64,000 nt of DNA from Strigamia acuminata. Its lineage: Eukaryota. Below are positions 36,420 through 63,859 of this stretch, piece by piece. The DNA lies in assembly GCA_949358305.1 (NCBI GenBank), contig OX442314.1, positions 8,742,001 through 8,806,000 of the forward strand. The letters are read 5' to 3'. The position numbers and the translations under genes were made by a program. Below the pieces are notes generated by a model. It ran no database searches, was not told the DNA's origin, and worked only from the letters and a program-made list of their open reading frames with translations. Each line of letters begins with the position of its first letter. Positions within the stretch are counted from its first letter, which is position 1.

Positions 36420-36853
36420 TTTGCTAATCGTAATAGTAGCCTAATTTTAACCAAAAAATGTACGAAGCGTCGTGTTTTCCAAACGTCGAACACAAAACTC
36501 GTTTCGAAGTGACTGACTGTTACGGGTTGACTGTACATATATAGGTACATAAATGAAGACGTTAGACCGACGCATGCAAAGTAACGAAGCGTCTGTACTG
36601 GTACGTACAATTATTACTAACAAATATTAAATTTGCATCTATTTCTTTCGTAGTAGTGCTTATTAGTTACCAACGTTTTGCGAATAAACATCGCGCACTG
36701 TTCGAATTTCATCGAATGAATAAATAAATAAACTATTATTAAAAAACATAAATTACTTATTTAATGACTAGACATGGATTGAATAAAACTTTACAATATT
36801 TAAAACATTAACATGAATAAAAAGCTAAGATTAATGCTAAAATGTTTGACAAT

Positions 36854-37343
36854 TCACACAAAATACATTCGAGAGGCGTCGTCGTGAAGCAGCACCGCCT
36901 TCTCCATTTGCTGGATGAGATGCTCGAGTTCCACGCCCGAATTATCCATCCTAAAAACAAAAGAAAAAATGAAAAACAATTTAATTTAATTTAATTTAAT
37001 TGCACGCACTTCTCCTGTAGTTGTTCCAGGTGCTTCCTCGCCCTGAACGCCGCCAAATGCGCGTAATACGCCGGCGCCGGGATCGAAACCGACCGCGGAC
37101 AACGAACGTACGTGTGACACAATTCGTACGTCAACTGGTGCAAATCGTCCGCACTGAAATCACTGTCGTCCCACAACACGTGATAATGCGTCGGCCGACT
37201 CGTCCCCTGCAAAAAACACGAATAAATCAATAAATTCCCTCCATTTAATTCAATTCAATTCACTTGAATTCCTTGATGGCTGCACAGAAAAACGTTGTTT
37301 TCGCTCGGATGGACGATGGCCCTGTCGACCACGGTGCTCGGTG
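36854..37343 (-). pseudogene. 5'-truncated Argonaute duplicate (last PIWI exons)
   Basis: [13 protein letters not shown]...CSHQGIQ / [14 protein letters not shown]...[11 protein letters not shown] / ...RMYFV*. Introns and ~300 bp of 3' flank are nearly identical to 62070-62900. No upstream exons. Confidence 0.9.
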
Positions 37344-38025
37344 GAACGTTCTTGCTTCTGCCGTACTTGGCGAAATGTTTTAACACGCCAAGTTTGCAAA
37401 AACAAAGTGCGTCGACTCCGAGGACAGGCCATTACACACGGCATACGCGGTTCATGGTTCGCGTCAAAGTTGAGCCGGAAAGCCGCCCGTGCCCCTGACG
37501 ATACACAGTCACTGTGAATCGAATTATTGATGTTTACATTCAATTTGAATGAGTGTAAACATCGTTCATTGTTGAACACTGCCCAACACTGTGACGGTAC
37601 CGGTGTAATTGGATTTTTTTGAGTTTATTTTGTATACTTTTGATTAATAATAATAAACATTTAGATTTTTTTACTAAACAATTACTGTGAATTGCTTAAA
37701 CAATTCGCTCGCTGTATAACGAATCGCGCTAAAATTGGGTTGGGTATTTGTTTATCGCGCAAAATCGATTAGCGCAAAATCGATTCGCGAATTAAATTTA
37801 CGCGCTAGATGACACGGACCATGTTCATGATGGGTGTACTCGTAATATAAATCCTATCAAAAGAAGGAATTTTTAGAAGAGACTCGTTTAGCATTTATCA
37901 TTTGATCAAATGTTAAATGGCGGCAGACTGAACTTTATGTCTAGACTTGAAAATCACCTTAATAATAATTAATAAATAAAGACATGAAAAAAAATCGTAA
38001 TGAATCCTCATTAGACCAATAATTC

Positions 38026-39146: not shown

Positions 39147-39800
39147 CTAAATGAGCTGTTTGAGTTGGACTTCGACGTTGGTCCATTCCTCGTCCGTGAG
39201 CGTTGGCCAGATGTGGTCGGGTTCGGTGACGGTGGTCTCGCCGGGCTTAAGGACGGCATCAGTTCGGTCCTTGTTCACGCACAGGGCCTTCAAGATAGAG
39301 GCGAGACGGGATAAGGCGGCATCGGATGAAATGGTTTTCAACCAATCGTCGTAGAGATTGAAAACAATCATTTGCGTTTCGGCCGCTTTTGTAATCAAAT
39401 CGCGGAATTTTTCAACCTTTAAACAGGCTTGGAAAAGGAGCTGGAGTTCGGTGCCCTTGATGGCGATGTTAGGAAAATCGAATAAATGGACTTGCAAGGG
39501 CTCTAACATTCCTCTCCGGGTAGCGATCACTTGTTTCGGCCGTTCCGCCACCGGTAAGGAACGAATGATTGCGCCCACATGTTCGGCAGTCTTCCATTTG
39601 GCTAATAAGGCCAAATCTTCCAGTCCGGCCCACGCGGATGTGTGGATTATTTGGAAGAACAATTTTCCGGTTTGCGGGTTTAGAATGAAAATAGCGCCGT
39701 TGATCGGCGCGGTCGTTACATCTCCTTCGAGGGCTTGGACTCTGTATACACAGGTATCGTCGACATACCAAACAATTTGATCGGCGCAAGAGCTATTCAT
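39147..39800 (-). CDS. Stand-alone Prp8 RNase H-like domain (domain IV) protein
   Basis: Intronless 217-aa [83 protein letters not shown]. No other Prp8 sequence seen in the window; AATAAA ~60 nt after the stop. Confidence 0.9.
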
Positions 39801-40900: not shown

Positions 40901-41172
40901 CCATCGCCGTAGTCGCAACCGACGAGACAATTTGTTTGTCGAAAAGGCTTTTACTTACGACCCTGGGTAGATATTGGAATGAAATTCTAACTGCAGCAAA
41001 CCAGGTGAGGCTTATTTAAACAATAAAATCATAATATTGATTTTCTTTTTCTTTTCATTTATTTAATTAGCCCACTTGGGGAAAAGACTAAAATATATTA
41101 AGTTTTTTTCCCTCGTCATTTCTTGTAAAAATAAAATTCATCAAGAAATAAATCACTCAAAATGGAAATAAA

Positions 41173-44100
41173 TCAAAATCCGGGATCCCAGTCGATTTTT
41201 TGCTCCGCTTCGACCATTTCGTAGCAGATTAAAGTGTCCCCTTGCTGGAACCTCACTTCATTGTCACTCAACCTCAAACCACACTCGATGTTCTTCTTAA
41301 TCGAATTCACTTCCTCTTTAAAATGCTTCATCGAAGACAACGTTCCTAAATAATAAATAAATAAATAAATATAAAAAATAACTAAATAGTTGTTTTTTCT
41401 ATGATTTTGCTGATTTTTAAATGTTTTTGGAGATTTTTAAATGATTTTGGAGATTTTTAAATGATTTTGGAGATTTTTAAATGATTTTGGTGATTTTTGA
41501 ATGATTTTGGAGATTTTTAAATGATTTTGGTGATTTTTAAATGATTTTGGTGATTTTTAAATGATTTTGGTAATTTTTAAATGATTTTGGAGATTTTTAA
41601 ATGATTTTGTTGATTTTTAAATGTTTTTGGTGATTTTTCTAAGGTTTTATTTTGATTTTACGATGTTTTTATCGATTTACCCTCAAACAAAACATCGTTT
41701 CCGCGTTTGAGTCGAAACTTGGCGCTCTTTTTCAGTGATCCTTTGATGCACTTTGCTCCTGCAACCGGCCATTTTTTCTTCCCTTCGGTGACGAGAAATT
41801 CCTGAAGTATTTCCGCCTCCCCTAAATTAAAAATTATAAATTATAAAAATTCATTTTAAATTTTTTTTAAAAAAGAAAATACCTATAATTTCTTCTCGTA
41901 GTGTGGTGGGTAACCGCGAGTTAATTTCTTCTTTTATGCCGTCAATCAATCGATAAATAACATTGAAGTCTTTAATGGCGATTTTTCTCCTTTTGGCAGT
42001 CTCTTTAGCATCGCTTAAAGTATTTGTGTTGAAGGAATACACGACAGCTGTGGAAAATAATCCTTAAATTCGTCAAATTCATAAATTTGTGCATTCATTA
42101 TTCTCTTTACCGCCACAAGCGTCTGCTAATTCCACGTCGCTCAACGTGACTGCGCCGACTCCGTAATGAATGACGTCGAGTTCGCACAGGGGTGACTGAT
42201 ACGTGTCTAACGTGTCTAAAATTGCATCTACTGAGCCATCCACATCACCTAATTAATTTTAAAAAATTAAGAAATAATTAAAATGAAACTTAAAACATAA
42301 AAAAATAAACGAAAATCGTCAAAAAACGTTTAAGAATCAACATAAAACGTGAAAAAACGTTTTAAAATGGAGGAAAATCGTTAAAAAACGTTTAAAAAAA
42401 TGAACGAAAATCGTCAAAAAAACCTTTAAAAATGAACGAGAATCGTCAAAATACGTTTAAAAATGAACATAAAACGTTAAAAAACATTTAAAAATGAACA
42501 AAAACGTTTAAAAATGAACAAAAACGTTTAAAAATAAACAAAAACGTTTAAAAATAAACAAAAACGTTTAAAAATAAACAAAAACGTTTAAATAAATAAA
42601 AAAATCGTTAAAAAATGAACAAAAAACGTCTAAAAACGTTTAAAAATGGAGGAAAATAGTTAAAAAACGTTAAAAAAAATGAACGAAAATCGTCAAAAAA
42701 CCTTTAAAAATGAACGAGAATCGTCAAAATAAGTTTAAAAATGAACATAAAACGTCAAAAAAACGTTTAAAAATGAACAAAAAACGTTTAAAAATGAACA
42801 AAAAACGTTTAAAAATGAACAAAAAACGTTTAAAAATGAACAAAAAACGTTTAAAAATGAACAAAAAACGTTTAAAAATGAACAAAAAACGTTTAAAAAT
42901 GAACAAAAAACGTTTAAAAATGAACAAAAAACGTTTAAAAATGAACAAAAAACGTTTAAAAATGAACAAAAAACGTTTAAAAATGAACAAAAAACGTTTA
43001 AAAATGAACAAAAAACGTTTAAAAATGAACAAAAAACGTTTAAAAATGAACAAAAAACGTTTAAAAATAAAGGAAAAACGTCAAACAACATAAAAAATCA
43101 ACAAAATCACCTTTAAGAATTATTAATAATCTCGGGCCCGTATCAGCGTCTGCGATTTCCTTCTGCCTCTGTACATATCCGGGTCTAAAATGTCCTTTTT
43201 TCAGCCTCTTGATCCTCTCTTCCTTGTAAATTCGATCGTGTTGCTTCATCTTCTCTCTGATGACTTGTCCTTCCGTGTCCAACTTCACCTGAGTCTTCTT
43301 GAACTCGCGCTCGGCGATCACAGCTCGAGCAATCTTCTGCAAATGTCCATCATCAACGTGTCCTCAAAACTGAGCATCGAAGCTTTAAAACGCTCCAAAT
43401 TTCCACCTCAAATCTTACGTACGTCCGATTCCACTTGGATGATTTCATCGCCGGCGTTTGGCAACTCTTTCCAACCGAGAATTTCCACCGGGGTGCTCGG
43501 GGGCGCCGAATGGACGAGGTTTCCGTGTTCGTTGAACATCGCACGCACCTACAAAGCATTTACATTTCTCAATTCAATCGTTTTGGTTACGTGTTTTTGA
43601 ATGTTTTTGGCTAATAAGAGCATTTTATTTCAGGGTTTTGGACTGTTTTTGCATGTTTTGTTAAAAAAACAATTGTTTTTGCTGGTTTATCAAAGAAAAC
43701 AATTGATTTTGCTGATTTTTCAACGTTTTTACTCGTTTTTGTCAGGGAAAACAATTGTTTTTGACTGTTTATCAACGTTTTTGCTCGTTTTTGTCAAGGA
43801 AAACAATTGTTTTTGACTGATTATCAACGTTTCTACTCGTTTTTGTCAAGGAAAACAATTATTTTTGACTGTTTATCAACGTTTTTTCTCGTTTTTGTCA
43901 ATGAAAACAATTGTTTTTGACTGTTCATCAACGGTTTTAGACTGTTTATCAACGTATTTAGACTATTTACCAACGTTTTTGCCCGTTTTTGCCAAAGAAA
44001 ACAATTGTTTTTGACTGTTTGTCAACGTTTTTAGACTGCTTATCAACGTTTTTAGACTTTTTACCAACGTTTTTGCTCGTTTTAGTCGAATAAAAAAATT

Positions 44101-46709
44101 TCATTTGAGTATAAACTGTTTTTTTGCTCGTTTGTCAATGATTTAAACTTGTGATCATCGATGACTTAAACTAATCACTAAAATTCTCTTTAAAATCCTT
44201 TAAATCATCGATAATTGTTCCGAGCAGCAACAACCAATAAAAGCAATTACTTTCGCCCAAGCTTGGCCTCCGACCAGCACAGCTCCCTTTCTCAACGTTC
44301 CGCTCTGTATAATCGCCGTGCACAGTTTCCTTCAAACAAAACACAAAATCAACACAAATTAACAACTACCGAAACCTATTTTACCCTCGAACGGGATCAA
44401 CCTGCGACTCCACAACCACTCCTTCGACCAAACCTTCGGGGTACCCTTTCAGCTCCATCATTTCAGCCTGCGTCAAAATTACGTCGATTAACGTGTCCAC
44501 ATTTTCGTTCTAAAATAATGATTAAAAAAAATTATTATATTAGTTTTTAATGTTTTTTATTGTTTGCGCACCTTCAGAGCTGATATGGCCACTACTTGAA
44601 CATCACCGCCGCCATCTTCTAACTGAATTCCGTGCTGCAAAAGCGATTTTTTAGCCGCGTCCTGTAAAATTTCAGTTTAATCATTTTTTTTTTACATGAA
44701 TTAATCAAAACCTACAATGTCCGCTTTCGGTTTGTCGATTTTGTTGATGGCGACAACAATGGGCACTAAATAAAATGTTAAAAAATCAAAAAGAAATCAT
44801 CAAAAATCGAATAAAATCATCAAAAATCATCAAAAATCAAAAGAAAATCGTCAACAATCGAATAAAATCATCAAAAATCAACAGAAAGTCGGCGAAAATC
44901 GAATAAAATCATCAAAAATCTAAAGAAAATCCTCAAAAAACGAAAATAAAACATCAAAAAAAATAAAATTATCATAAATGGAATAAAATCGAATGAAATC
45001 ATCAAAAATTATCAAAAATCGAATAAAAACAGAATAAAATCAACAAAAATCGAATAAAAACAAAATAAAATCAACAAAAATGGAATAAAAACCAAATAAA
45101 ATCAACGAAAATAGAAAAATTATAATTTTTAAAAACAAATTTAATTAACCATTGGCTTCGTTTGCATAACGAATCGATTCGAGTGTTTGTTCCATAACCC
45201 CATCATCGGCGGCTATCACGAGAACGACTATGTCGGTGACTGATGCACCACGAGCTCTCATGGCCGAGAATGCAGCGTGCCCGGGTGTGTCTAAAAACGT
45301 CACCGTTTCGCCGGAAGTGACTTTTACTAAAATAAAATTATTGCATATTGTATATTTTTAATAATTTATGTGATTATTGCGATGATGTACCGGAGAAAGC
45401 ACCAATGTGTTGAGTGATTCCACCGAATTCTTGATCCACAATGGAGGAGTTGCGAAGTGTGTCGAGAAGTGTTGTTTTCCCGTGGTCAACGTGTCCCATG
45501 ATCGCGACGACTGGAGGCCGTTTTACGAGCGATTTCGGATCCGGTGGATTTCTGTTTTGAAAATAATTGTTAATTAATCGTTCAAATCAGTTTGGGCTTG
45601 GGCAATTTTTTTTTATATTAAAATCAACATTTTTCAAGAATAAAACCAAATTTTGAGTTTTTATTTTAATAAAAATATTTTTTTATCGGAAAAACTTGAT
45701 TTAATCCTCTCGAAATTGGCTTTAATAAATAAAATGTTTGATTTTTTGGTAAAAATTGAATCTTTTTGCGTAAAAATTGAATCTTTTTGCGTAAAAATTG
45801 AATCTTTTGTGCAAAAATTGAATCTTTTTGTGCAAAAATTGAATTTTTTTGCGTAAAAATTCAATTTTATTGCGTAAAAATTCAATTTTATTGCGTAAAA
45901 ATTCAATTTTATTGCGTAAAAATTCAATTTTATTGCGTAAAAATTCAATTTTCTTGTATAAAAATTGAATTTTGTGCTAGAATAAAATTTTTCATGCAAT
46001 TCATGAAAATGTATTTTTTCCAATAAAAAAAATCGAATTTTCGTTGCACCTTTTTAACATCAATTCGACATCTTCATGTTTCCTCACTTTATCAGGCGCG
46101 ACGACAAAAACAGCAGTAAACCCAGCCTTCTTTACAAACTCATTCAAAATATGAGGATTATCAATAGCTAAAAACCAAAACAACCATAAACACAAAAAAA
46201 AACCAAAAAAATTCTAATTCTAATTACCAGAATCGGGCGTATCATAATCAACATCTTTGAAATGCCTCATCAACGCAAACATAAAATCTAAACCAAAAAA
46301 TAAATAAATAAATAAAATTCTAACAAAAATACAAAAATCAAAATTCCACCTAAATCTCGACCAAGTATTTCCGCCAACTCTTTAACCGTAATATTAATCC
46401 AAACTTTGACTTCATCGCCCCTGAATTTGTCCTTAACTTTCGGCAGGTACTTCAACAGTCTGTCACTTTTAGGCTGAAATAAAACGCACAAAAAAATACA
46501 ATTAATATTTTTAATTTTAATTTTCACATTTTCATACTAACTCTGGATCCCGCATTTGATTTCCTACGAGTGCACGACGTGTGGATTAAACTGACACAAT
46601 TTTCACGCTTTTCTAGTAGGTTTATATTCGAAAACCGCAGTAAATGTTTCAATCCAGCTGCTCTTCTTTCGTTTAATGTCAATTTCAAGCAATAGTTAAG
46701 CAATTTCAT
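41173..46709 (-). CDS. MTIF2: Mitochondrial translation initiation factor IF-2
   Basis: Multi-exon. [79 protein letters not shown], ends QKIDWDPGF*; basic N-terminal presequence. Confidence 0.93.
41405..41640. repeat. 20-bp intronic tandem repeat
   Basis: (ATGATTTTGGWGATTTTTAA)n. Confidence 0.9.
42300..43085. repeat. 20-21-bp intronic tandem repeat
   Basis: (AAAAATGAACAAAAAACGTTT)n; source of the KRLKMNK ORFs. Confidence 0.95.
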
Positions 46710-50018: not shown

Positions 50019-50546
50019 TTTTGTGTAAAAAAAATTAAAACAAATAAATTGAAAAAAGTACGTTTTTTGAAAAGGCTTTTACATTGGTTTTTCAAATCGC
50101 CGCCAGAGTGCCCTACTATCTACGCGCCAAAAATCACAAAATAATGGACTTTTCCACATTAAAATGGAAAACAAAATATGTGGGCAGATAGGAATTTTTA
50201 TTTTAACCAGGATTAGCCTGGTTTCAGAATTTATTGAGCACTTTATAATTAAAAACGAAGCAGATTTAGAGTTGACCCTGACAATCTGGCATCCATTTTA
50301 GTTAAAATATACCAGTGGTGGCGCTACTGTGCACCGGAAGTTGAAAAAAACATTCATGTCAAGTTAAATAAAAACATCTTTATAAATTTCAATGCAATCT
50401 TATTGATTTATTTGTTGGATTTAGTCAGTTTCGTACAGACAATGGACACACAATAAAAACAAGTGGCGCCAACTGGCGTTACATTAATACAATAATAATG
50501 GTTACTTAAAACTAACAATAGGTGTCACAATTATTTACAACATTAT

Positions 50547-51164
50547 TTACATGAACAAACAATCCAAAGCTGAATTGACACTTTCCACATCAAATCCATC
50601 GGGATCGAACCAACCGAACCGTTTAATCGTCTCGTCATACTCGATATTATGGGGATCGATCAAATTGTCAACGAGTCTTTTGAACTGCTCGGGTCCGCCG
50701 CACCGGTCGGGTGGCACGCATCGCTCTCCCACAATGCATCGCGGGTATTTCACTCCGATCTCGTAAGGTAGAAGCGTCTCGAGAACGATCTCGTGGTCCC
50801 AGTAATAATTTTTGTGCAAACCGAGGAAATTGTAGTAGTAATAAACGTGTTTTTCCACCAAATTCAAATATTTGGCGACGAGCACGTCCTCGTTTTCGAC
50901 GACGCAGTAGCCGTCGCCGATTCGCTCGTAATTGGCCATGGAATTAAACTGCGAATTTTTCACGACAAATCGATGAGGCAGATTATGGATCCAGCCCATC
51001 GCCACTTGCACGACGAGGTTTAATTGGCTTAGGGTGAAGTTTTGGGGGATTTGAATCTGCCGCCATATTTTCGGTTCGAACTCGTCGTCTTCGTCGATGC
51101 ACAGGGATATCTTGAGTTGGTAGACCACTTTCCAGACGTTGTAACGGTTCCGATCGGATGACAT
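50547..51164 (-). CDS. Plasmid pRiA4b ORF-3-like (MM3350-like) protein, copy 1
   Basis: VYQLKISL...PKIWRQIQIP.NFTL.QL..VVQVAMGW...H.F; YYYNF...WDHEIVLE; YPRCIVGERCVPPDRCGG; FDPDGFD...VN. Start placed at MSS (51164); the ORF is open to 51188. Confidence 0.85.
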   Translation of the reverse strand: MSSDRNRYNVWKVVYQLKISLCIDEDDEFEPKIWRQIQIPQNFTLSQLNLVVQVAMGWIHNLPHRFVVKNSQFNSMANYERIGDGYCVVENEDVLVAKYLNLVEKHVYYYYNFLGLHKNYYWDHEIVLETLLPYEIGVKYPRCIVGERCVPPDRCGGPEQFKRLVDNLIDPHNIEYDETIKRFGWFDPDGFDVESVNSALDCLFM

Positions 51165-51583
51165 TTTATCTATAAGTACTACCTTCATAGAAATTATTAA
51201 ATTAAATGTTACAATATCTTGGAAAATACATTACTTGTAGCCACATCGAATATGACGCTGTTTAGGAAACGAGGGAGCCAGCATGTGAGGAAATTGATAA
51301 CTAATTTTTGTAAGATGAAATGTTACTCACAGACTGATGTTATACGGAATGGAAGAACAGGTCTGGGGTTAGGCTTGAGCAAATTGCAAATGGCGGAAAG
51401 CATTTTCATTGAAAAATATAAATTAAATTGCACGATAAGAATTGAAGAATAATAAATAAATTATTTATTGACTCAACTATGAGCAATTGAGAAATGCATT
51501 ACAACTCGTGTCGCATGAATGAAATAAATAAAATGAATAAAATAAAATGAATAAAATAAATAAATGAAAAAGTGTTTGACGCT

Positions 51584-54500
51584 TCACACAAAATACATTC
51601 GGGAGGCGTCATCGTGAAGCAGCACCGCCTTCGTCATTTGCTGGATGAGATGCTCGAGTTCCAAACCCGTATTATCCAGTCTACAAACATGAAAAAATAA
51701 AAAAATAAAAATAAAATTGACAATTTAATCCGATTTATTCCACACACTTTTCCTGAAGAAGTTCCAAATGCTTCCTCGCCCTGAACGCAGCCAAATGCGC
51801 GTAATACGCCGGCGCCGGGATGGAAACAGCTCGCGAACAACGAACGTACGTGTGGCACAATTCGTACGTCAACTGGTGCAAATCGTCCGCACTAAAATAA
51901 CTGTCATCCCACAACACGTGATAATGCGCCGGCCGACTCGTCCCCTGGAAAAAAACACGAATTAATTTAATTTAACTTAATTTAATTTAATTCAATTCAC
52001 TTGAATTCCTTGATGGCTGCACAGAAAAAAGTCGTTTTCGCTCGGATGGACGATGGCCGTGTCGACCACGGTGCCCGGCGGAACGTTCTTGCTTCTGCCG
52101 ACGGCGTCGCCCAAATTCTCGCAGAAGAGGCGCGTGTGGTGGCGCTTTTGGACGACCAAAAAGGTGATGGACGGCTGGTAAGCTCGCTCCAGAGAGGTGC
52201 ACGCGGCTCTGATGGCCAACAACTCGTTGCGCAGCACCTCGTAAAACTGTCCTTCGCCCACCCCGTCGCGGTAGAAAATTATTCGCGCCGGTTTGAAGTT
52301 GGTGGCGCGCTTAAACTCGATCAACAATTCGCGCACTTTGTCTTTCAGAGTGCAAATCACTTCCTTGCGGGTGTCTTGCACGCAGATTTTCGCTAAATAT
52401 CGTTGCGCGTGTTGGTCCATACTCCCCACAACCTAAAATTTAAAAAAATTTAAAAAATTGGATAGAAATTTATTTAAAAAAGACCATACGGCAGCAATTG
52501 ATGGTCGTTTGGTTTCTCCCGGAGCCGGATGAGTGACGTCAGCGCCCAAAATGATGACCGGTGCTTGAAAAACCGAAGATCTGCAATTTATTTTTCCACT
52601 AAGTCGTTAATTCACATTCTAAATCGTTTTCAACCTCGGATATGTTCGATTCGGGCTCAAAATGCTGCTGGTTTTGCCCATTTTGGCGTTGATTTTCAGC
52701 AACAGATTAATCAAAGTGGCGCGATTGCATTTCTTTTCGATCGTGTTGGTCAGGATGCATTGAGTCGTCACGCCGAGCATAATGTCTCCGTTTCTTTTCA
52801 CTTCCCCTGTTGGTAAAATTAATTAATTACATTAAATTTTAATCACCAACTTTTTCTACCATAAAAGGGCATGTTGGCGAAGGGCAGAACAACCACGACC
52901 AACTGTAGCTTCTTCCACGCTGCAAACTCGCTGGTCACGTCACCTCGCGGCGCAAATCGTTTGTTGAACACCGGAGCCGCCATGGAAACACCGATTTCGC
53001 GACCCGTTTTAACCAGTTCTTTCCAAAACCGCCTGCACATAAAGGTGTAATAATAATAATAATACATCCACAATTTTTATTTTTAATTCTCTTTTTTACT
53101 CGATTTGGTCCGGCCTCGTTCGGCAGTCCGCATGAACGATTATGCCCCACGCTTTGATGGAGGCGCCCTCGTACAATTGAGATCCGTTCAGATCCCACAC
53201 GCCATCTCGCGGTCGTATCTAATAAGTAAGTAAATAAATAAAAATACAATCGACTTAGATTGGTTGCTAATACTTCTTTGTCGTCATTTAATTGGACGAG
53301 GGGTGGCGGCAACACTCGACCCGTGACACGCATCATTTCCGTCACGACGGAAATGCCGAATGCTTGCACGTTAGAATCTTCATTCAAGTTTGCCGCTTTA
53401 AGCTGTGCAAATGATAAATTAATTTCTTTCAATCTGTAGGAATATGAAATATACAATTCTACCAATTTCATAATTTCGTCCCGTCGTTCGGGAGCGGGAA
53501 GCGCCGTTTTCTGAAATTCATTTCGAAAAATTACAAAAATTGGATTTAAAATTTATATTTAAATTTTTCTACCCGGATCATGTTTGACGTTTGTATATCG
53601 GTCAGTTTCTTCGACAGTTGTCCGGCCAAAATGGTGCAAACCTGAAAATGTGATTTATTCCATTTATTTCACATAAAATTTGATATTTCAATCAATTACC
53701 TCCATCGGAAGAAACGTGTTCTTTTCGGCAGGTTGAGCCTGGAGAGTCGGCAAGCCGGCGTGTCTAATCGCAAATAAATTCTAAATATCGTAATTCTAAC
53801 CACTAAACAAATCGATTTATTACCGTAATCTGTAATTGTACGCCGTTAAAAAATACTTCTCAGTCGTATAAAAAGCCTTTTTTCCATCCTTTTCTACTTC
53901 AAAACTACAAAAACATTAATTAATCAATCAATTGTTTATTTATAATTAATTATATTTCTACCTGTGTTCCGAAGCTGGTATTCCAAGTCCAATTAGTCGA
54001 TATTTCCTGCGAGCAGACGGATTGTGGACGACTTGAATTCTCACGCCTAAAATGGTAAAAATCGAGTTCTCAATATGCCCACAGATGGCGCCGTAAAATA
54101 CATCACAAAAATATTAAGACTAACGAGCAGATTTGATCGGATTTGATAGATTTAGTTTGAAGAGGTTATCCATAAGCATAAAATTGCTGAACATATTAGT
54201 TCCTCCACTTCATCGCAAAATTTGAAACATAATACCAAATAAATTCCCCTCGGTCCCGCAAAATGGCGCATCACCAAATTCAAGATGGCGCATCACCAAA
54301 CTCAAGATGGCAGCTCTTTGTTTACCTCACGCTGGTTTACCTCTTATTTCTTTAGCGAACAATTGCCACTTCCTAGGAGGCAGCGAAGACAATTCGTCCA
54401 CGGATCTACATCGAAAAAACTCCACGGCGAAATCCAAGGCCGGCTGTGCTTTGTAAAAGCTTCGATTTGATACTGGAAAATATGAAAAATGAACGAAAAG

Positions 54501-56127
54501 AAATAAAAAGCAATAGAAGAAAGATAAAAACGAATAATACTGAATTAAAACGACTAAAAATGAATAATACTGAATTAAAACGAATAAAAATAATGAATTA
54601 AAACGAATAAAACTGAATAAAAACGACTAAAAATGAATAAAAGCCGGCATTAACCATCGAAATTCAACTGCAGCAAATCCTTCCACTTGCCGGGACGAAC
54701 ACTTTGGTAATATCCGCGCCACATTTCGGCCCCGCCGCCGAGGTCGTAACCGTGCGCTTGATCCGGGTACAAACTCCGACCAATCGAAACGTATCTGCAA
54801 ATATTGAGATGTTAAAGAAAATCTTCGATCAAGTTAAATCGTCTACTTGAGGGACGGCAAATGTCTCAATACGATGTCCAAAGCTTGAAGCGCGTGTTGC
54901 GGGACGTCCCTTATTTGGCCTTTTAAAAATCCTTCTAAATCTTTCAACGAGATTTCGCCCACTTTCTTGATCCCCACTGCAAACGTCCTTTCTTTCTCGT
55001 TGTCTTTAGCCATGTTGATGTTAAACAACATCTGCAATAACGACACGAATAGAAATAAATATAAAAATCGATTAAAAAAAAATTAATGTAAAATATCGAA
55101 TAAAACATGAAACAAACGTAAAAAATCGAATGAAAACATCAAATAAACGTAAAAACACCAAATAAACGTAAAAAATAAAATAAAAACATCCTAAAATCTA
55201 ATGTAATCCAATATAAACATAAAAATAAAATAAAAACCCCAAAAAACTGAATCTAATCCAAAATAAACATAAATAATAGAATCAAAACTCAAGATAAATG
55301 TAAAGAATAAAAAAAACCCAATCATTTTACCCCTCGGAAATCAATGCTTGGTATCTCGAGATTCGCATACAAATTCTTTTGACCGTCGAAAACGCATTTC
55401 ACACGACCAAACAGCGTCGCACAACTGCTAACAATTGCTTCTACGATTTCCCTACACACAAAAAACAAAATTAAAAATACACTAGATAAAAAAAAAATTG
55501 ATTTTTCACCGTTTAAAACCCTTATTAGCCTTCATTTCCGGTAAGATCTCAACATCATAATGATGTATCGTAGTACTCGTGTTAAAACTCACTAAAAAGT
55601 GATTGGCGGCTAACTGTATGGGCCGTCCACGTTTTCCTAAATCCTTTCGCACCGGCGGTTTCAGAAATCTGTATTTAGTCGGCGGCAGTTGCTCCGCGAG
55701 CGACATCATTTCTGGAAATTCTTGTTTCGGAACACAAACGGACGAAGAAACTTTTCGTACATCTGCTTCCAATACAATTTTCTCTTTTTCACAGTCGCCA
55801 TGTTTGCTTGGTTTCGGTACATCAACCGAGTTTTCCGAGTGGTTTGCCGCCACTTCCGGTGCTGCAACTGGACCTAATCAAACAAACAATATTTAATTTT
55901 TATCCCAATGATTTAAAAATTGAAATAAATGAATAAATAAATAATTTTTTTTTTAAATAAACATTGAGCGGCCATTTTTGTTACCGGCACTTGTTTAACA
56001 GCCTCAGTTGCTGCTGGATAAAAATATTTATGAAAATTATTTTGTTTTTTTAACATTTTAAATAAAATAAATTCTTACCTATTTGTTCCTGACCAGGAAC
56101 TCGCATTCGACCCCTCAAAGGTAGCAT
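51584..56127 (-). CDS. Argonaute (AGO clade), copy A
   Basis: Multi-exon N-PAZ-MID-PIWI gene: [40 protein letters not shown]...[43 protein letters not shown], ends MYFV*. Confidence 0.93.
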
Positions 56128-56829
56128 AATTGAATGTTAGTGACTAAAAAATAGACGAACAGATGATGAATTATGAGACAATGGATGTTTTTATTGTGTT
56201 CTTGCTTTTATACTCGAAATTTTAAAACTCTCGAACCGTCAATCCGAAATAAAATTTTATTAAAAATTAATGAACCGATGAATGAATAATTCATAAGAAT
56301 AAACAAAGCAAAAATAATTTATATCAAATTATCGCAAATTCGAGGGCCAATTTTTAAAATATACATTTTACAGTCGAGCAGAATAGAGTTACCTCATTTC
56401 TGATTGGCTAAAATATCGTTGGAATATGCAAATTACAAAGCCAATCAGGACTCAGTTAATTCAAAAATAAAGATCCCATAGTTTAAACAGATGGTTTATG
56501 TTTTTGATTTTTGTATTATTTGATTTATTTATTTATTATTTATTTATTTTATTAAGTGATGTTGGTTTTTGTATCTTATTACAAAATAAATGGTAATAGA
56601 GATTTCTGTACGCAAAGAATGCCAATAAAATAAACTGATTTATTCATTTAGATGTTTTGCACAAATTCATGGACTTACATGATATTTTTCATTGATTTTA
56701 TACATTTCTTTGTATAATTCAGATGAAATGTTATGAAATCTGCTGTAACTTCGCAAATGTGTCTACTATTACATCTCGTAATACACTTTTAAAACATAAA
56801 AAATACAAAAAATTAATTAATCATCCATT

Positions 56830-57354
56830 TCAATAAGGAAACGAAGCGAACGCAATTTTCGGATCGAATTCATCCAAAGCGCAAATGATTCCCAAAATCT
56901 CCGAAGGAGTCGCGCATCTTCCATCAACGCATCGCGGATACTTCTCGTCCGACTCCCGCAGCAATTTCTTCTCCAAAATTATCTTCAACTCCCACGAACC
57001 CTCGTCGAAATCGTACAAATAATGCAGCGTTTTGTTCTCGTTGTTGAGATAATTATAAATCGCCATTTTCTCCTCGTCGTACACTTCGGGGCCGTAAAAA
57101 CTCCAATTGTCCTCCATTTTGGGCGGAATGCCGATCAAGTCTTGCGTGCGCGTTTTCGAATTATTCGCCTCGAATAAGTGGAAATTGCTCTCCATCCAGT
57201 CCATCGCGTGGAGAATAGTCGTGTGCAGTTGCGCGAACGTGAAATTCGCGGGGATGTGCACACGGCGCCATATTTTCGGCTTTGTTCCCAACAAAATCAT
57301 TTTCAGTTGGAAGATTTTCTTCGTCTGTTTCGACGGAATTCCGGCCGACGACAT
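56830..57354 (-). CDS. Plasmid pRiA4b ORF-3-like (MM3350-like) protein, copy 2
   Basis: IFQLKMILLGTKPKIWRRVHIPANFTFAQLH..I..AMDW...FHLF; YLYDFDEGSWELKIILEK; YPRCVDGRCATPSE; candidate 5'-UTR GT-AG intron 57424-57368. Confidence 0.85.
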   Translation of the reverse strand: MSSAGIPSKQTKKIFQLKMILLGTKPKIWRRVHIPANFTFAQLHTTILHAMDWMESNFHLFEANNSKTRTQDLIGIPPKMEDNWSFYGPEVYDEEKMAIYNYLNNENKTLHYLYDFDEGSWELKIILEKKLLRESDEKYPRCVDGRCATPSEILGIICALDEFDPKIAFASFPY

Positions 57355-57974
57355 TGGAAATTGTTATCTGAAATGTTAAATAAAATTTTAAAATTGTTCG
57401 GTTAATGTTTTTGTGGTGATTTACCACGGGAACGGACGATTTCGTGACGAAAATGCTGATGGAAATGAAATCTGAAAATTAAATCCTCGGACTTAACATG
57501 GCGGACGTGAGTAAGCGATGCGAGCGAGTGCAAAAGAATTTATGTAAGTGTTTGAATATTTTAAATATAAATATTGTATTTTATATTTTTAATTTTTAAA
57601 TAGAAAATTTTATTTAATTTTGAATAAAGTTGTCTTGTTTTTAGAATTATCATCGTGAAATTTTAGTTCGGTATTTTGCCACGTTGGATCGGCGCTTCTG
57701 TCACACCAGTGGATTCCAGAATTGAAACGAATCTTTTGTTCTGTTCGACTAAATCCGGGATAAAAGTTTTAATTAACATTAATTTATAAGACATTAACTA
57801 ATTTTTATCGATATTTCATTTGGAGTCGACAGTTCGTCTTTATCTAGTGGTAAGTTATTTCTATTTAAAGGGAAAATTCCCCATTGCACAACTTTCGGTT
57901 TCGAATTTTGTGTATAAAAGCATTCGGCGTCATTTTTTGTGATTATCTCGCAATTTAGTCTCTAAAATTCAGTC

Positions 57975-60900
57975 ATGCCACGAAAAAAGGGTCAAAAACG
58001 AGTTACCGGTAATAAACAAGGTAAGAAATTGCCAGATTTTATTAATTTTTAAATTTTTATTGTTTAATTTTCTGTTTTTTTCGGTTTCGCAGGAGCTGAG
58101 GATGATAAACTCCCGTTCGCTGAATTGGTCGCTGCTGGTGATGCTTCGCAACAAACAACGGGTGAGGAATTATCGGGAAAACTACCCGGATCTTCGAAAA
58201 TGGCTGCTCAATGTTTGCTTCTTTATTTATTCTTTCAAGCTTTCCTTTTTTCTATTTTTATACTTCCATTTTTTAAATCACGGTGGTGAAAATTTGAAAT
58301 TATTTCTTTCAGTTGGCGCAGCTGCAGCACCGGAAGTTGAGGTAAAACTCGCGGAAAAAGCGGTTGATCCACCGAAATCGGAAAAAAATGGCGATCGAAC
58401 ACGATTAAAAAAGACAAAGGGTAAAAAAGATGGAAATGCGGTTGCACCGGATCCACAATCTGAACAGGAAGTACTCGCGGCCCAAGTACCCGAGGGGGAA
58501 ATGAGACCGGTCCGAAAGAAAAACGGTCAGAAAGACAAGATGGCGGGCGAACCGGATCTATCGAAGGTTTCGTCTTCCGCCGATGTATCGAAACAGGAAG
58601 TGCCGAGACTGATGTCACTCGCGCAGCAAGTGTCCGGTGACACCGGACTGAAGCCGCCGATAAGAAAGGATTTCGGAAAACGTGGACGGCCGATACAGTT
58701 AGCCGCCAATCACTTTTTAGTGAGTTTTAACACGAGCGCTACGATACATCATTACGATGTTGAGATCTTGCCGGAAATGAAGGCTAATAAACGTTTTAAA
58801 AGGTGGAAATTTGATGGATTTTTGATAATTGTGTTTTTAATTTTTTTTTGTGTGTGCAGGGAAATCATCGAAGCAGTTGTTGGCAATTATGCGATGGTGT
58901 TTGGTCGTGTGAAATGCGTTTTCGACGGTGAAAAGAATCTGTATGCGAATCTTGAAATACCACACATTGATTTCCGAGAGGTGAAATGATTGTTTTTTTT
59001 TTGTTTTTTATATTTATTTTGACTTTTTACTCGATTTTTTACATTTGTTTGACTTTTTATTCGATATTTTACATTTATTTGACTTTTTAATCGATTTTAT
59101 CTCTTTTTTGACTTTTCAATTCATTTTTTTGACTTTTTAATCCATTTTTTGACTTATTAATCCATTTTTTTTTTTACTTTTTAATCCATTTTTTCCACTT
59201 ATTTGACTTTTTTTATCAATTATTTTTATTTTTTTCACTTTTTAATTCATTATTTTACACTTATTTGACTTTTTAATCAATTATTTTTATTGCTTTGAGT
59301 TTTTATCGATTTTTTAAACTAATTTTTGTTTGTGTCAATATTGCAGACGTTGTTTAACATCAGCATGGATAAAGAAAACGAGAAAGAAAGGCCGTTTACT
59401 GTGGGAATCAAGAAAGTGGCCGAAATCTCGTTGAAAGATTTACAAGGATTCTTAAAAGGCCAAATAAGGGACGTCCCGCAACACGCGCTTCAAGCTTTGG
59501 ACATCGTATTGAGACATTTGCCGTCCCTCAAGTAGACGATTTATCTTCATCAAAGATTATGTTTAACATCTCGATATTTGCAGATACGTTTCGATTGGTC
59601 GGAGTTTGTACCCGGATCAGGCGCACGGTTACGACCTCGGTGGCGGGGCCGAAATGTGGCGCGGATATTACCAAAGTGTTCGTCCCGGCAAGTGGAAGGA
59701 TTTGCTGCAGTTGAATTTAGACGGTTAATGTCATTTTTTATTCCTTTTTATTCCTTTTTAATTTTTGTCTGCATTTTTAATATAGTTTTTACTCGTTTTT
59801 ATTCGTTTTTCACTCGTTTTTATTCATTTTCACTCGTTTTTATCCATTTTTACTCGTTTTCATCTCTTTTTACTCATTTTTATTCGTTTTTTACACGGGT
59901 TTTTTTCTCTTTTTTCATTTTCCAGTATCAAATCGAAGCTTTTACAAAGCACAACCCGCCTTGGATTTTGCCGTGGAATTTTTCCGATGTAGAAATGTGG
60001 ATGAATTGTATTCGCAGCCTCCCAGGAAGTGGCAATCGCTCGCTAAAGAACTCAAGGGTAAATGAATGGCGGCCATTTTGATTTTGGGGATGCGCCATCT
60101 TGAGGAAGCCGCTCATTTGAGAACTCTATTTGATCATTTCAGGCGTGAGAATTCAAGTCGTCCACAATCCGTCTGCTCGTAGGAAATATCGACTAATAGG
60201 ACTTGGAAAACCAGCTTCGGAACACAGGTAGAAATTTAATTAATTATAAATAAACAATTGATTCATTAGTTAATGTTTTTGTAGCTTTGAAGTTGAAAAG
60301 GATGGGAAAAAGGCTTTTTATACGACCGAGAAGTATTTTTTAACGGCGTACAATTACAGATTACGGTAATAAATCGATTTGTTTAGTGGTTAGAATTACG
60401 ATATTTAGAATTTATTTGCGATTAGACACGCCGGCTTGCCGACTCTCCAGGCTCAACCTGCCGAAAAGAACACGTTTCTTCCGATGGAAGTAATTGATTG
60501 AAATCATCAAATTTTAAGTGAAATAAATGGAATAAATCACATTTTCAGGTTTGCACCATTTTGGCCGGACAGCAGTCGAAGAAACTGACAGATTTGCAAA
60601 CGTCAAATATGATCCGGGTAGAAAAAATTAAATGTAAAATTTAAATCCAATTTTTGTAATTTATCAAAATGACTTTCAGAAAACGGCGCTACCCGCTCCC
60701 GAACGACGAGACGAAATTATGAAATTGGTAGAATTGTAAATTTAATCTCTAAGAATTGAAAGAAATTAATTGAGTGTGTGCACAGGTAAAAGCGGCCAAT
60801 TTGAATCAAGACTCGTTCGTGCAAGGATTCGGCATTTCCATCGTGACGGAAATGATGCGTGTTACGGGCCGAGTGTTGCCGCCACCCCTCGTCCTACTGA

Positions 60901-62588
60901 AAGACAACAAAGAAGTATTAACAACGAGCCTAAATCGATTCTATTTATTTATTTACTTATTAGATACGACCGCGAGATGGCGTGTGGGATCTGACCGGAT
61001 CTCAACTGTACGACGGCGCCGTCATCAAAGCGTGGGGTTTAATCGTCCATGCGGACTGCCGAACGAGGCCGGACCAAATAGAGTAAAAAAGAAAATAAAA
61101 AATAAAAACATTATTACATCTTTATATGTGCAGGTGGTTTTGGAAAGAACTGGTTAAAACTGGAAGCGAAATCGGTGTTTCCATGGCGGCTCCGGTGTTC
61201 AATAAACGATTTGCGCCGCGCGGTGACGTGACCAGCGAGTTTGCAGCGTGGAAGAAGCTGCAGTTGGTCGTGGTTGTTCTGCCCTTCGCCAACATGCCCT
61301 TTTATGGTTGGAAAACCTTGATGTTTAAAGTATAATTGAATTGAATTGAATTTTACCAACAGGGGAAGTGAAAAGAAACGGAGACATTTTGCTCGGCGTG
61401 ACGACTCAATGCATCCTGACCAACACGATCGAAAAGAGATGCAATCGCGCCACATTGATCAACCTGTTGCTGAAAATCAACGCCAAAATGGGCAAAACCA
61501 ACAGCATTTTGAGCCCGAATCGAACATATCCGAGGTTGAAAACGATTTAGAATGTGAATTAACGACTTAGTGGTAAAATAAATTGCAGATCTTCGGTTTT
61601 TTCAACACCGGTCATCATTTTGGGCGCTGACGTCACTCATCCAGCTCCAGGAGAAACCAAACGACCATCCATTGCTGCCGTATGAGCTATAAAATGTTAT
61701 CTAAATTGTTTCCATTATTATTGTTTTAATTTCTAGGTTGTGGGGAGTATGGACCAACACGCGCAACGATACTTGGCGAAAATCTGCGTGCAAGACACCC
61801 GCAAGGAAGTGATTTGCACTCTGAAAGACAAAGTGCGCGAATTGTTGATCGAGTTTAAGCGCGCCACCAACTTCAAACCGGCGCGAATAATTTTCTACCG
61901 CGACGGGGTCGGCGAAGGACAGTTTTACGAGGTGCTGCGCAACGAGTTGTTGGCCATCAGAGCCGCGTGCACCTCTCTGGAGCGAGCTTACCAGCCGTCC
62001 ATCACCTTTTTGGTCGTCCAAAAGCGCCACCACACGCGCCTCTTCTGCGAGAATTTGGGCGACGCCGTCGGCAGAAGCAAGAACGTTCCGCCGGGCACCG
62101 TGGTCGACACGGCCATCGTCCATCCGAGCGAAAACGACTTTTTTCTCTGCAGCCATCAAGGAATTCAAGTGAATTGAATTGAAATGAATTAAATGGAGGG
62201 AATTGATTAATTTATTCTTGTTTTTTTGCAGGGGACGAGTCGGCCGACGCATTATCACGTGTTGTGGGACGACAGTGATTTCAGTGCGGACGATTTGCAC
62301 CAGTTGACGTACGAATTGTGTCACACGTACGTTCGTTGTCCGCGATCGGTTTCGATCCCGGCGCCGGCGTATTACGCGCATTTGGCGGCGTTCAGGGCTA
62401 GGAAGCACCTGGAACAACTACAGGAGAAGTGTGTGCAATTAAATTAAATTAAATTAAATTAAATTGTTTTTATTTTTTCTTTTGTTTTTAGGATGGATAA
62501 TTCGGGCGTGGAACTCGAGCATCTCATCCAGCAAATGGAGAAGGCGGTGCTGCTTCACGACGACGCCTCCCGAATGTATTTTGTGTGA
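57975..62588 (+). CDS. Argonaute (AGO clade), copy B
   Basis: Same exon structure as copy A, with a longer charged N-terminus. DEDH tetrad (GADVTH, KEVI, YRDG, YAHL) and MID Y-K-Q-K pocket intact; ends RMYFV*. Confidence 0.94.
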
Positions 62589-62904
62589 ATTGTCAAACAT
62601 TTTAGCATTAATCTTAGCTCTTTATTCATGTTAATGTTTTAAATATTGTAAAGTTTTATTCAATCCATGTCCACTCATTAAATAAGTAATTTATTTCTTT
62701 TTAATGATAGTTTATTTATTTATTCATTCGATGAAATTCGAACCGTGAACGTTACTAACTAATAAGCATTACTACGCGTTTATCTGTTTTAAGAAAGAAA
62801 TAGATGCAAATTTAATATTTGTTAGTAATAATTGTACCTACCAGCACAGACGCTTCGCTACTTTGCATACGTCGGTCTAACGTATTGATTTATGTACCTA
62901 TATA

Positions 62905-63669
62905 CAGGGTGTTTTGTTTAAGACGCCCCAGTCAATTTCCTGAATAAGTATACCGGTATGCTTTTTTAAAAACCAAGCAGACTAGCCTACAGCAAAGTAG
63001 GGATGACAAATCCAATGGTGTAATCAAATTTCATGCCAGACATGCAACAATGCACTTTTCATTTGCTAACTCGTTAGCTGGTCGAGATAGAGCAAAATTT
63101 CCAATTACAAAGTTGTAGAGCACCATCATATTAGTACTATCAAACTTATCTTAGTCACCTTAAGTTAAATTTTTTCATTTTAAAATGAAAACAAATCAGC
63201 TGAAATAAAGCCAGCCATTGTGGCAAAAATTAAATTTCTACTGCAAAAGTACTGAATTTCTTCAATAAATCTATTCAAATTTGCATTATTATGCAAGTAA
63301 ACAAGAAAAACAACTGTATTTTTTAATGCCTTAAATTATTTTATTTTCTAAGAATAAAAAATTTCAATTTGCTGATTTGTTTTCTTTTTTTAAAAAAAAA
63401 AACAGTCCTTAAGGTGACTAAGATAAGTTTGGTAGTACTAATTTGATGGTGCTCTACAACTTTGTAATTGGAAATTTTGCTCTGTCTCGACCAGCTAACG
63501 AGTTAGCGAATGAAAAGTGCATTGTTGCATGTCTAGCATGAAATTTGATTACACCATTGGATTCGTCATTTCTACTTTGCTATAATATAATATATACTCT
63601 GCTTGGTTTTTTAAAAAAGCATATACTTATTCTGGAAATTGACTGGGGCGTCGTAAATCAAACACCCTG
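62905..63669. mobile_element. Tc1/mariner-like MITE with long (~250 bp) TIRs
   Basis: TA|CAGGGTGTTT...GACGCCCCAGTCAATTTCC ... GGAAATTGACTGGGGCGTC...AAACACCCTG|TA. Confidence 0.9.
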
Positions 63670-63859
63670 TATACAAGCAAAGACATTCCATACATTCCCC
63701 CCATCTAAACATGGAGTTCACATTAATCGATCCCACACTTGAACGTGCAGCGTTGGTCAAACTCGGTGCCAGTTTGTGGAAAAGCGACTTGAATCTCTAG
63801 CAAATACTCTACGATAATCGCTTCTGCAATAAAGATGTTTTTGAAAAAGAGGTCATGAA

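What the first reader, a model, noticed from the sequence alone, without database searches (positions are those of the whole stretch)
50547..57424. Two diverged, apparently domesticated pRiA4b ORF-3-like genes (likely horizontal transfer)
Seen: two intronless CDSs with the family signature (QLK...PKIWR...P...T..QL...AM.W; Y.Y.F...W...I.LE; YPRC..G....P), embedded among spliced animal genes, so contamination is unlikely. They are far more different from each other than the adjacent Argonautes are, both begin MSS, and copy 2 has a candidate 57-nt 5'-UTR GT-AG intron (57424-57368). Copy 2 lacks the CGG-helix segment present in copy 1. Inference: an old bacterial-to-animal transfer followed by duplication and gain of eukaryotic gene structure.
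Basis: partly seen in the sequence, partly recalled or inferred. Interest (0 to 1): 0.75.

Follow-up and report, generated by a model that had tools for sequence, protein, structure and literature searches.

The report
Bacterial-type genes beside centipede Argonautes
A centipede chromosome carries two intact genes of a family typical of bacteria and archaea on either side of an Argonaute gene, likely old gene transfers kept by selection, but similar genes sit in spiders, beetles, a midge and a water flea, so this is a new case of a recurring pattern whose function is untested.

Summary
Observation confirmed. Both intronless ORFs are PF07929 (E about 1e-32), 32% identical to each other against 93% for the two Argonautes. 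Contigs of two runs join copy 1 to spliced Argonaute exons at host-like depth. Copy 2 has an 87%-identical, same-length counterpart in Strigamia maritima with the same deletion, so the host is a close relative and the gene is conserved. Its 57-nt 5'-UTR intron scores like true introns; copy 1 has a weaker 65-nt candidate. No RNA data.

Prokaryotic origin is likely, but the family is not unique here: named homologues occur in spiders, beetles, a midge and Daphnia, and this scan noted arrays in two other animal genomes. 'One transfer, then duplication' is unresolved: none of five free trees joins the copies and copy 1 shares rare residues with a Bacteroidota subfamily, yet monophyly is not rejected.

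The fold is MM3350, a ubiquitin-like core whose next match is SNAPC3. Both copies have lost conserved polar residues and lack a signal peptide: likely intracellular binding modules. Copy 2 lies head-to-head with Argonaute B. Not found in the papers searched.

The parts
50547..51164 (-). Copy 1, PF07929/MM3350-like ORF, 205 aa, full-length domain, intronless CDS
   Evidence: GC 0.47, GC3 0.62
51170..51234 (-). Candidate 65-nt 5'-UTR intron of copy 1 (weak, predicted)
   Evidence: donor 4.3, acceptor 3.3, 1.6% background rate
51584..56127 (-). Argonaute A (Ago2-like), 20 exons, open 932-aa frame; lies between the two copies
   Evidence: one donor (exon 2) is doubtful
56830..57354 (-). Copy 2, PF07929 ORF, 174 aa, lacks the C-terminal helical segment; 87% identical to S. 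maritima T1JA37
   Evidence: GC 0.47, GC3 0.64
57368..57424 (-). Candidate 57-nt GT-AG 5'-UTR intron of copy 2 (strong prediction)
   Evidence: 0 of 52,240 background positions
57425..57974 (.). A+T-rich spacer between copy 2 and Argonaute B, head-to-head; candidate shared promoter (inferred)
   Evidence: ATGs at 57354 (-) and 57975 (+), GC 0.31
57975..62589 (+). Argonaute B, inverted paralogue of Argonaute A

Best explanation
Two intact PF07929 genes sit in a centipede chromosome on either side of an Argonaute gene; they likely descend from an old transfer from a prokaryote, were likely kept by selection, and most likely act as intracellular binding modules built on a ubiquitin-like fold. Steps: (1) shown: family, fold prediction, physical linkage of copy 1 to spliced host exons, conservation of copy 2 in S. 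maritima. (2) inferred, about 0.85: prokaryotic origin; the family travels on plasmids and transposons and occurs in arthropod endosymbionts, which gives a route. (3) inferred, about 0.55: the two copies arose by duplication after one transfer (or came together from one donor, 0.25), lay in tandem about 1 kb apart, and the recent inverted Argonaute duplicate came to lie between them. (4) inferred: copy 2 gained transcription from the Argonaute B promoter region and a 5'-UTR intron. (5) inferred, about 0.35: both lost part of the conserved His/Asp/Cys set of the prokaryotic family and now bind a partner protein or a protein-nucleic acid complex through the beta-grasp core, as SNAPC3 does within SNAPc, rather than catalysing a reaction.
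For: Pfam E about 1e-32. 702 plasmid records match copy 1, best 35-36% identity. Contigs 50400-51791 (X1, 0 differences) and 50400-51685 (X2) join copy 1 to Argonaute A exons; contig depths of the copies (87.6 and 83.2; 295.6 and 250.8) lie beside those of single-copy Argonaute contigs (89.6-94.2; 222.8-344.8). S. maritima protein 87% identical, same length, same deletion, 15 of 23 changes conservative, whereas Argonaute A and the S. maritima paralogue SMAR010593 agree at 136 of 197 positions (69%, counted by hand). GC and GC3 match the Argonautes (0.49-0.51; 0.55-0.59) against 0.25-0.32 in the spacers. Stem to copy 2 + S. maritima is 1.2-1.5 changes per site against 0.04-0.08 for the tips, so the gene is much older than the species split. 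Model pLDDT 84.8; Z 21.7 to MM3350, 8.8 to SNAPC3, about 6 to E1 ubiquitin-fold domains. Copies keep 28 and 26 of 41 family-conserved columns against a median of 40 in 357 other domains. No hydrophobic signal or membrane segment, no C-terminal GG. For duplication: adjacency, both start MSS with an acceptor-like AG 5 and 13 nt upstream, and the tree held to join them scored 8.2 log units higher under the mixture model.
Against: No free tree joins the copies (0 of 5). Copy 1 shares 15 rare residues with a Marinilabiliales cluster (P0038) but only 4 with copy 2; 0 of 9,900 comparably diverged pairs reach 15, so part of copy 1's 'erosion' may be inherited from a bacterial subfamily. Centipede + spider + beetle monophyly is not rejected (p-AU 0.39), so one early-arthropod origin with many losses remains open. 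The two runs are from one study and may be the source of the assembly. No S. maritima counterpart of copy 1 appeared. Both proteins are net acidic (pI 5.0, 6.0), against direct DNA binding. A shared fold shows no function, and Z 8.8 is only modestly above common values.
Confidence: 0.62

Rival explanations
1. The two copies come from different prokaryotic subfamilies: copy 1 from a Bacteroidota-type gene, copy 2 from the clade that also holds the beetle, spider and endosymbiont proteins; they arrived together from one donor or separately.
For: 15 rare residues shared by copy 1 and P0038 against 4 with copy 2; P0038 is copy 1's best BLAST hit among the 152 proteins and 80 locus proteins then held; copy 1 groups near Bacteroidota rows while copy 2 sits inside a 98% SH-aLRT clade without it.
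Against: Monophyly of the copies is not rejected (p-AU 0.755, 0.167); two separate insertions 5.7 kb apart are unlikely a priori; shared MSS start and upstream acceptor; both are long branches.
Confidence: 0.3
2. The genes are remnants of one transfer into an early arthropod, inherited vertically with widespread loss and lineage-specific duplication.
For: Named homologues in all four subphyla, several on chromosome-scale contigs; centipede + spider + beetle clade not rejected (p-AU 0.39); all named arthropod rows plus 3 unnamed neighbours not rejected (p-AU 0.19).
Against: The 10 named arthropod rows alone are rejected as one clade (p-AU 0.003); Daphnia and Contarinia proteins have short branches among Tisiphia, Megaira and other bacterial rows and keep 40-41 of 41 conserved columns.
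Confidence: 0.2
3. The ORFs are contamination or misassembled symbiont DNA.
For: Intronless CDSs; the family is present in arthropod endosymbionts; the laid runs are of one study.
Against: Contigs join copy 1 to spliced Argonaute exons without differences at host depth; A+T-rich spacers without neighbouring bacterial genes; 87% counterpart in a second species; best prokaryotic identity only about 35-42%.
Confidence: 0.03
4. The genes are diverged host SNAPC3 derivatives, not transfers.
For: SNAPC3 is the second structural match (Z 8.8).
Against: Sequence matches are to prokaryotic PF07929 at E about 1e-32 and to MM3350 at Z 21.7; identity to SNAPC3 is 11-14%; a 78-sequence profile does not find SNAPC3 in the PDB at E up to 10.
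Confidence: 0.02

Closest known systems
Pfam PF07929 (PRiA4_ORF3) / MM3350 of Methanosarcina mazei, PDB 2I1S
   Same: Full-domain HMM match, 2I1S E 2e-21 by sequence, Z 21.7 and rmsd 2.1 over 174 residues.
   Different: Animal locus with predicted 5'-UTR introns; 13 and 15 of 41 conserved columns changed; copy 2 lacks the C-terminal helical segment. Family function unknown; PMC3942029 (passages read) reports it as a shared passenger ORF of 12 ISAzba1-group transposons.
Strigamia maritima T1JA37 (UniRef: Plasmid pRiA4b Orf3-like domain-containing protein)
   Same: 87% identical to copy 2, 174 aa, same deletion.
   Different: Only an automatic annotation; no counterpart of copy 1 found; its genomic neighbours could not be read.
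Other arthropod PF07929 ('y4hQ-like') proteins: Oedothorax, Parasteatoda, Asbolus, Tribolium madens, Daphnia sinensis, Contarinia
   Same: Same domain in arthropod assemblies, often duplicated.
   Different: Most keep 33-41 of 41 conserved columns (one Oedothorax domain 26); none shown to be sister to the centipede genes; no Argonaute link known.
SNAPC3/SNAP50 of the snRNA-activating complex (PDB 7XUR chain B)
   Same: Ubiquitin-like core plus extension, Z 8.8 over 134 residues (chain range 169-347, which spans the DNA-contacting helix and ZF-1 ligands named in PMC9758055, passages read).
   Different: 11-14% identity; the centipede proteins are acidic and half the size; residue-level equivalence of zinc ligands was not tested.
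Reported bacterial transfers into centipedes (PMC7864903, PMC9151784)
   Same: Bacterial genes fixed in centipede genomes, about half intronless in the second paper.
   Different: PF07929 is not among the listed cases (section and passages read; readable supplements searched without a hit); these proteins lack a signal peptide, so a venom role is unlikely.

Membership tests
PF07929 / MM3350-like | HMM score above the gathering cut-off over the domain | tested here: met
   114.3 and 113.3 bits vs 26.6
PF07929 / MM3350-like | MM3350 fold | tested here: met
   copy 1 model Z 21.7, rmsd 2.1; copy 2 not modelled
PF07929 / MM3350-like | Full set of conserved His/Asp/Cys/Gly columns (my own column count, not a curated criterion) | tested here: not met
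   28 and 26 of 41 kept vs median 40; 6 and 5 of 357 other domains are as low
Domesticated horizontal transfer | Physical linkage to host genes | tested here: met
Domesticated horizontal transfer | Presence in a second species | tested here: met
   copy 2 only: S. maritima 87%
Domesticated horizontal transfer | Nested among prokaryotic sequences with a supported donor | tested here: inconclusive
   placed among bacterial and unnamed rows in all trees, but on long branches without a stable sister; fungal homologues not identified
Domesticated horizontal transfer | Spliced, polyadenylated transcript | not testable with these tools
   no RNA holder listed; intron predicted only
Domesticated horizontal transfer | Purifying selection (dN/dS) | tested here: inconclusive
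   protein-level only: 87% vs 69% for the neighbouring Argonaute; no orthologous DNA available
Paralogue pair from one transfer | Copies form one clade | tested here: inconclusive
   0 of 5 free trees; p-AU 0.755 and 0.167
SNAPC3/SNAP50 | Sequence-level match to SNAPC3 | tested here: not met
   no Pfam or PDB sequence hit at E up to 1 and 10
Conjugatable ubiquitin-like modifier | C-terminal di-glycine | tested here: not met
   C-termini of both copies lack it
Secreted venom protein | N-terminal signal peptide | tested here: not met
   crude hydropathy scan only; no 19-residue window above 1.15
Anti-phage defence system component | PADLOC or PHROGs model match | tested here: inconclusive
   0 families at E 0.1

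The most novel reading that the evidence does not exclude
A prokaryotic mobile-element passenger protein, a distant structural cousin of SNAPC3, was recruited as a co-regulated cofactor of the centipede antiviral Ago2 pathway: copy 2 shares a bidirectional promoter with Argonaute B and its product binds the Argonaute or its RNA complex, and arthropods have repeatedly domesticated this family from endosymbionts for genome defence.
Probability: 0.07. Interest if true: 0.85.

Novelty: new member of a known kind. Interest (0 to 1): 0.42.

Why it matters
It adds an unlisted family to the known bacterial transfers into centipedes and shows the same function-unknown mobile-element gene fixed in several arthropod lineages. 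Repeated retention suggests a useful activity, and animal copies offer a genetic handle (knock-down, pull-down) on a widespread prokaryotic family with a solved structure but no function. The fold link to SNAPC3 is a lead on the origin of a eukaryotic transcription factor domain. The interest is limited because function is untested, the S. maritima gene is already auto-annotated, and other arthropods have the family.

Tried and rejected
No RNA holder listed; no evidence either way on expression. No whole genome held, so copy number elsewhere is unknown. Word-index search with copy 1 found nothing. Viral contigs: no relative with alignments A1 and A2; 9 loci with an endosymbiont protein as query, 33-41% identity; 3 phage records; BFVD gave two giant-virus proteins at 9-12% identity: no viral vector found. 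NCBIfam, PADLOC and PHROGs: 0 families. ESM Atlas returned only PF07929 clusters for copy 1 and held no structure; it did not answer for copy 2. Neighbour scan of 114 ORFs from 60 prokaryotic, metagenomic and viral loci (2 of 62 picked loci dropped as near-duplicates): among the rows shown no family beside more than 2 loci and no Piwi domain; 7 loci have a transposase, integrase or reverse transcriptase and 8 more a restriction, toxin-antitoxin or Abi-type gene (15 of 60, no control). No clear inverted repeat or DNA-level similarity around the two copies. Careful IQ-TREE searches did not finish, so quick trees are reported. Attempt to place T1JA37 beside SMAR010593 in S. maritima failed. Literature searches without a relevant hit: pRiA4b, family identifiers, TnpR + IS1096, 'ORF-3 family protein' + horizontal + arthropod, y4hQ; listings only. 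PMC1949818 does not mention the family. No complex was predicted: adjacency alone was not reason enough.
Full report
Observation. The minus strand holds two single-exon ORFs, 51164-50547 (205 aa) and 57354-56830 (174 aa), both starting MSS. Both match Pfam PF07929 far above the cut-off (E 6.8e-33 and 1.3e-32) and are 32% identical to each other. Between them lies a 20-exon Argonaute with an open 932-aa frame; a second Argonaute runs the other way from 57975, 92.7% identical over exons 4-20 with dS 0.16. Copy 2 lacks the helical segment after the CGG motif. No third copy lies in the window.

Host and integration. The only close hit for copy 2 among 14 word-index candidates is a Strigamia maritima protein, T1JA37: 87% identical, also 174 aa, with the same deletion. 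The window is therefore from a centipede close to S. maritima. The window's Argonautes resemble S. maritima AGO1/2-like-2 (SMAR010593; supplement rows seen), and PMC4244043 (passages and parts of supplements read) reports two Ago2 paralogues in that species. By hand count Argonaute A and SMAR010593 agree at 136 of 197 aligned positions (69%), so copy 2 is better conserved than its fast-evolving neighbour; 15 of its 23 differences are conservative. Contigs of two runs from one study join copy 1 to the last Argonaute A exon (50400-51791 without differences; 50400-51685), and contig depths over both copies match single-copy Argonaute contigs. These runs may be the assembly's own source. GC and GC3 of both ORFs equal the Argonautes' and stand far above the spacers. 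Contamination is very unlikely.

Gene structure. On a splice matrix from Argonaute A (18 donors, one doubtful donor left out; 19 acceptors) the copy 2 intron scores 7.9 and 8.5; its 57 nt fit the modal size (15 of 19 Argonaute A introns are 52-67 nt), and 0 of 52,240 background positions show such a pair. Copy 1 has a weaker 65-nt candidate (1.6% background) ending 5 nt before its ATG. Both remain predictions, because no RNA run was listed. Copy 2 and Argonaute B are head-to-head with 620 nt between the start codons, so a shared promoter is plausible (inference).

Distribution. A profile of the two copies finds 10,647 representatives at E up to 0.001; 702 plasmid records match copy 1. Of 20 hits I picked for look-up by score or tree position, 7 were named arthropod proteins (Oedothorax with three domains on a 42-Mb contig, Parasteatoda on 102 Mb, Asbolus three times, Tribolium madens with isoforms, Daphnia sinensis), 3 clusters had bacterial names and 10 had no informative name. 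Among 120 rows of a further search were Contarinia and the endosymbiont lineages Tisiphia (3), Megaira and Amoebophilaceae. So the family is present, patchily, in all four arthropod subphyla. Most rows are unnamed and the sample is biased; fungal members (recalled, not from a call) were not identified, so a fungal route is untested. Two earlier notes of this scan describe intron-bearing arrays in other animal genomes (unchecked).

Phylogeny. Both copies are long branches. None of five free trees joins them. Yet a tree held to join them is not rejected: 8.2 log units better than the quick free tree under the mixture model (p-AU 0.755) and 9.5 worse under LG+F+G4 (p-AU 0.167). Copy 1 shares 15 rare residues with a Marinilabiliales cluster and 4 with copy 2; 0 of 9,900 comparably diverged pairs reach 15 (a best-of-371 pick). 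The 10 named arthropod rows are rejected as one clade (p-AU 0.003), but not when three unnamed neighbours are added (0.19), nor is centipede + spider + beetle (0.39). Daphnia and Contarinia proteins sit on short branches near endosymbiont and other bacterial rows. Several transfers of different age are the simplest reading; duplication of the centipede pair is favoured by adjacency and the shared 5' ends, not by the tree. The stem below copy 2 and its S. maritima counterpart is 1.2-1.5 against tips of 0.04-0.08, so the gene long predates the species split.

Structure and mechanism. AlphaFold with 78 sequences gives pLDDT 84.8. The model matches MM3350 (Z 21.7), then human SNAPC3 (Z 8.8, 134 residues), then E1 ubiquitin-fold and ubiquitin-like domains (Z 5-6). 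PMC9758055 (passages read) describes SNAPC3 as having a central ubiquitin-like domain and binding DNA and partner subunits. The prokaryotic family has 41 columns conserved in at least 85% of 357 domains, rich in His, Asp, Cys and Gly, which suggests a metal or catalytic site (inference; coordinates not available). Copy 1 keeps 28 and copy 2 keeps 26; both lose the first His of the HxH motif, the Cys before PP and the Asp of PPED. Some of copy 1's changes also occur in the Bacteroidota cluster. Neither protein has a signal peptide or a C-terminal GG, and both are net acidic. I therefore favour intracellular, non-catalytic binding modules (about 0.35), over a retained enzyme, a direct DNA binder, or a venom component. 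In prokaryotes no conserved neighbour emerged; 15 of 60 loci had a mobile or defence gene next door, without a control, and PMC3942029 (passages read) reports the gene as a passenger of ISAzba1-group transposons. No Piwi domain was among those neighbours, so the Argonaute link has no prokaryotic precedent here and may only reflect a dynamic locus, which also holds an Argonaute 3' fragment and a lone PRP8 domain.

What is known. PF07929 is not among the 11 myriapod transfers of PMC9151784 (section read; 5 supplements searched, one unreadable) or the venom transfers of PMC7864903 (passages read; 11 supplements searched). Five library searches found no paper on animal members (listings only). Most supplements of PMC4244043 were not searched, and bioRxiv supplements and subscription papers are outside reach; they could list this gene.

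Verdict. A real, conserved, likely horizontally acquired gene pair; a new member of a known kind, apparently undescribed in the papers searched but paralleled in other arthropods. Interest 0.42.

Noticed in passing
window 39147-39800 (-): Intronless 217-aa ORF that is only the PRP8 RNase H-like domain IV (Pfam E 5.9e-88; best PDB match human PRP8), visibly diverged, with its own ATG and stop and stop codons upstream in all frames; GC3 0.60. A stand-alone retrocopy or domesticated domain.
   Followed up: partly
window 36538-37363 (-): 3' fragment of an Argonaute (last exons plus flank), 91% identical to Argonaute B and 87% to A; truncated at its 5' side.
   Followed up: partly
window about 41170-46500 (-): Spliced gene that reads like mitochondrial translation initiation factor 2 (recognised by eye; not searched).
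   Followed up: no
window 4849-9634: LTR retrotransposon with an open 1380-aa gag-pol frame (5056-9198, -) and 154-nt identical direct repeats at 4849-5002 and 9481-9634, so a recent insertion.
   Followed up: no
window 19331-20696: Long imperfect tandem repeat with open frames and weak SEA-domain scores, possibly spurious.
   Followed up: no
window 62901-63673: Roughly 770-nt imperfect inverted repeat (79%) just downstream of Argonaute B, like a MITE.
   Followed up: no
model m6cdde27a9229: PF07929/MM3350 fold aligns to SNAPC3 (Z 8.8) and to two giant-virus proteins (Hyperionvirus, Barrevirus; E 4e-4, 1e-3): a possible prokaryotic relative of the SNAPC3 core.
   Followed up: partly
P0186, P0192, P0210, P0187: PF07929 proteins of Tisiphia (three) and an Amoebophilaceae bacterium form one tight clade (98% SH-aLRT), suggesting exchange between unrelated arthropod endosymbionts.
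   Followed up: no
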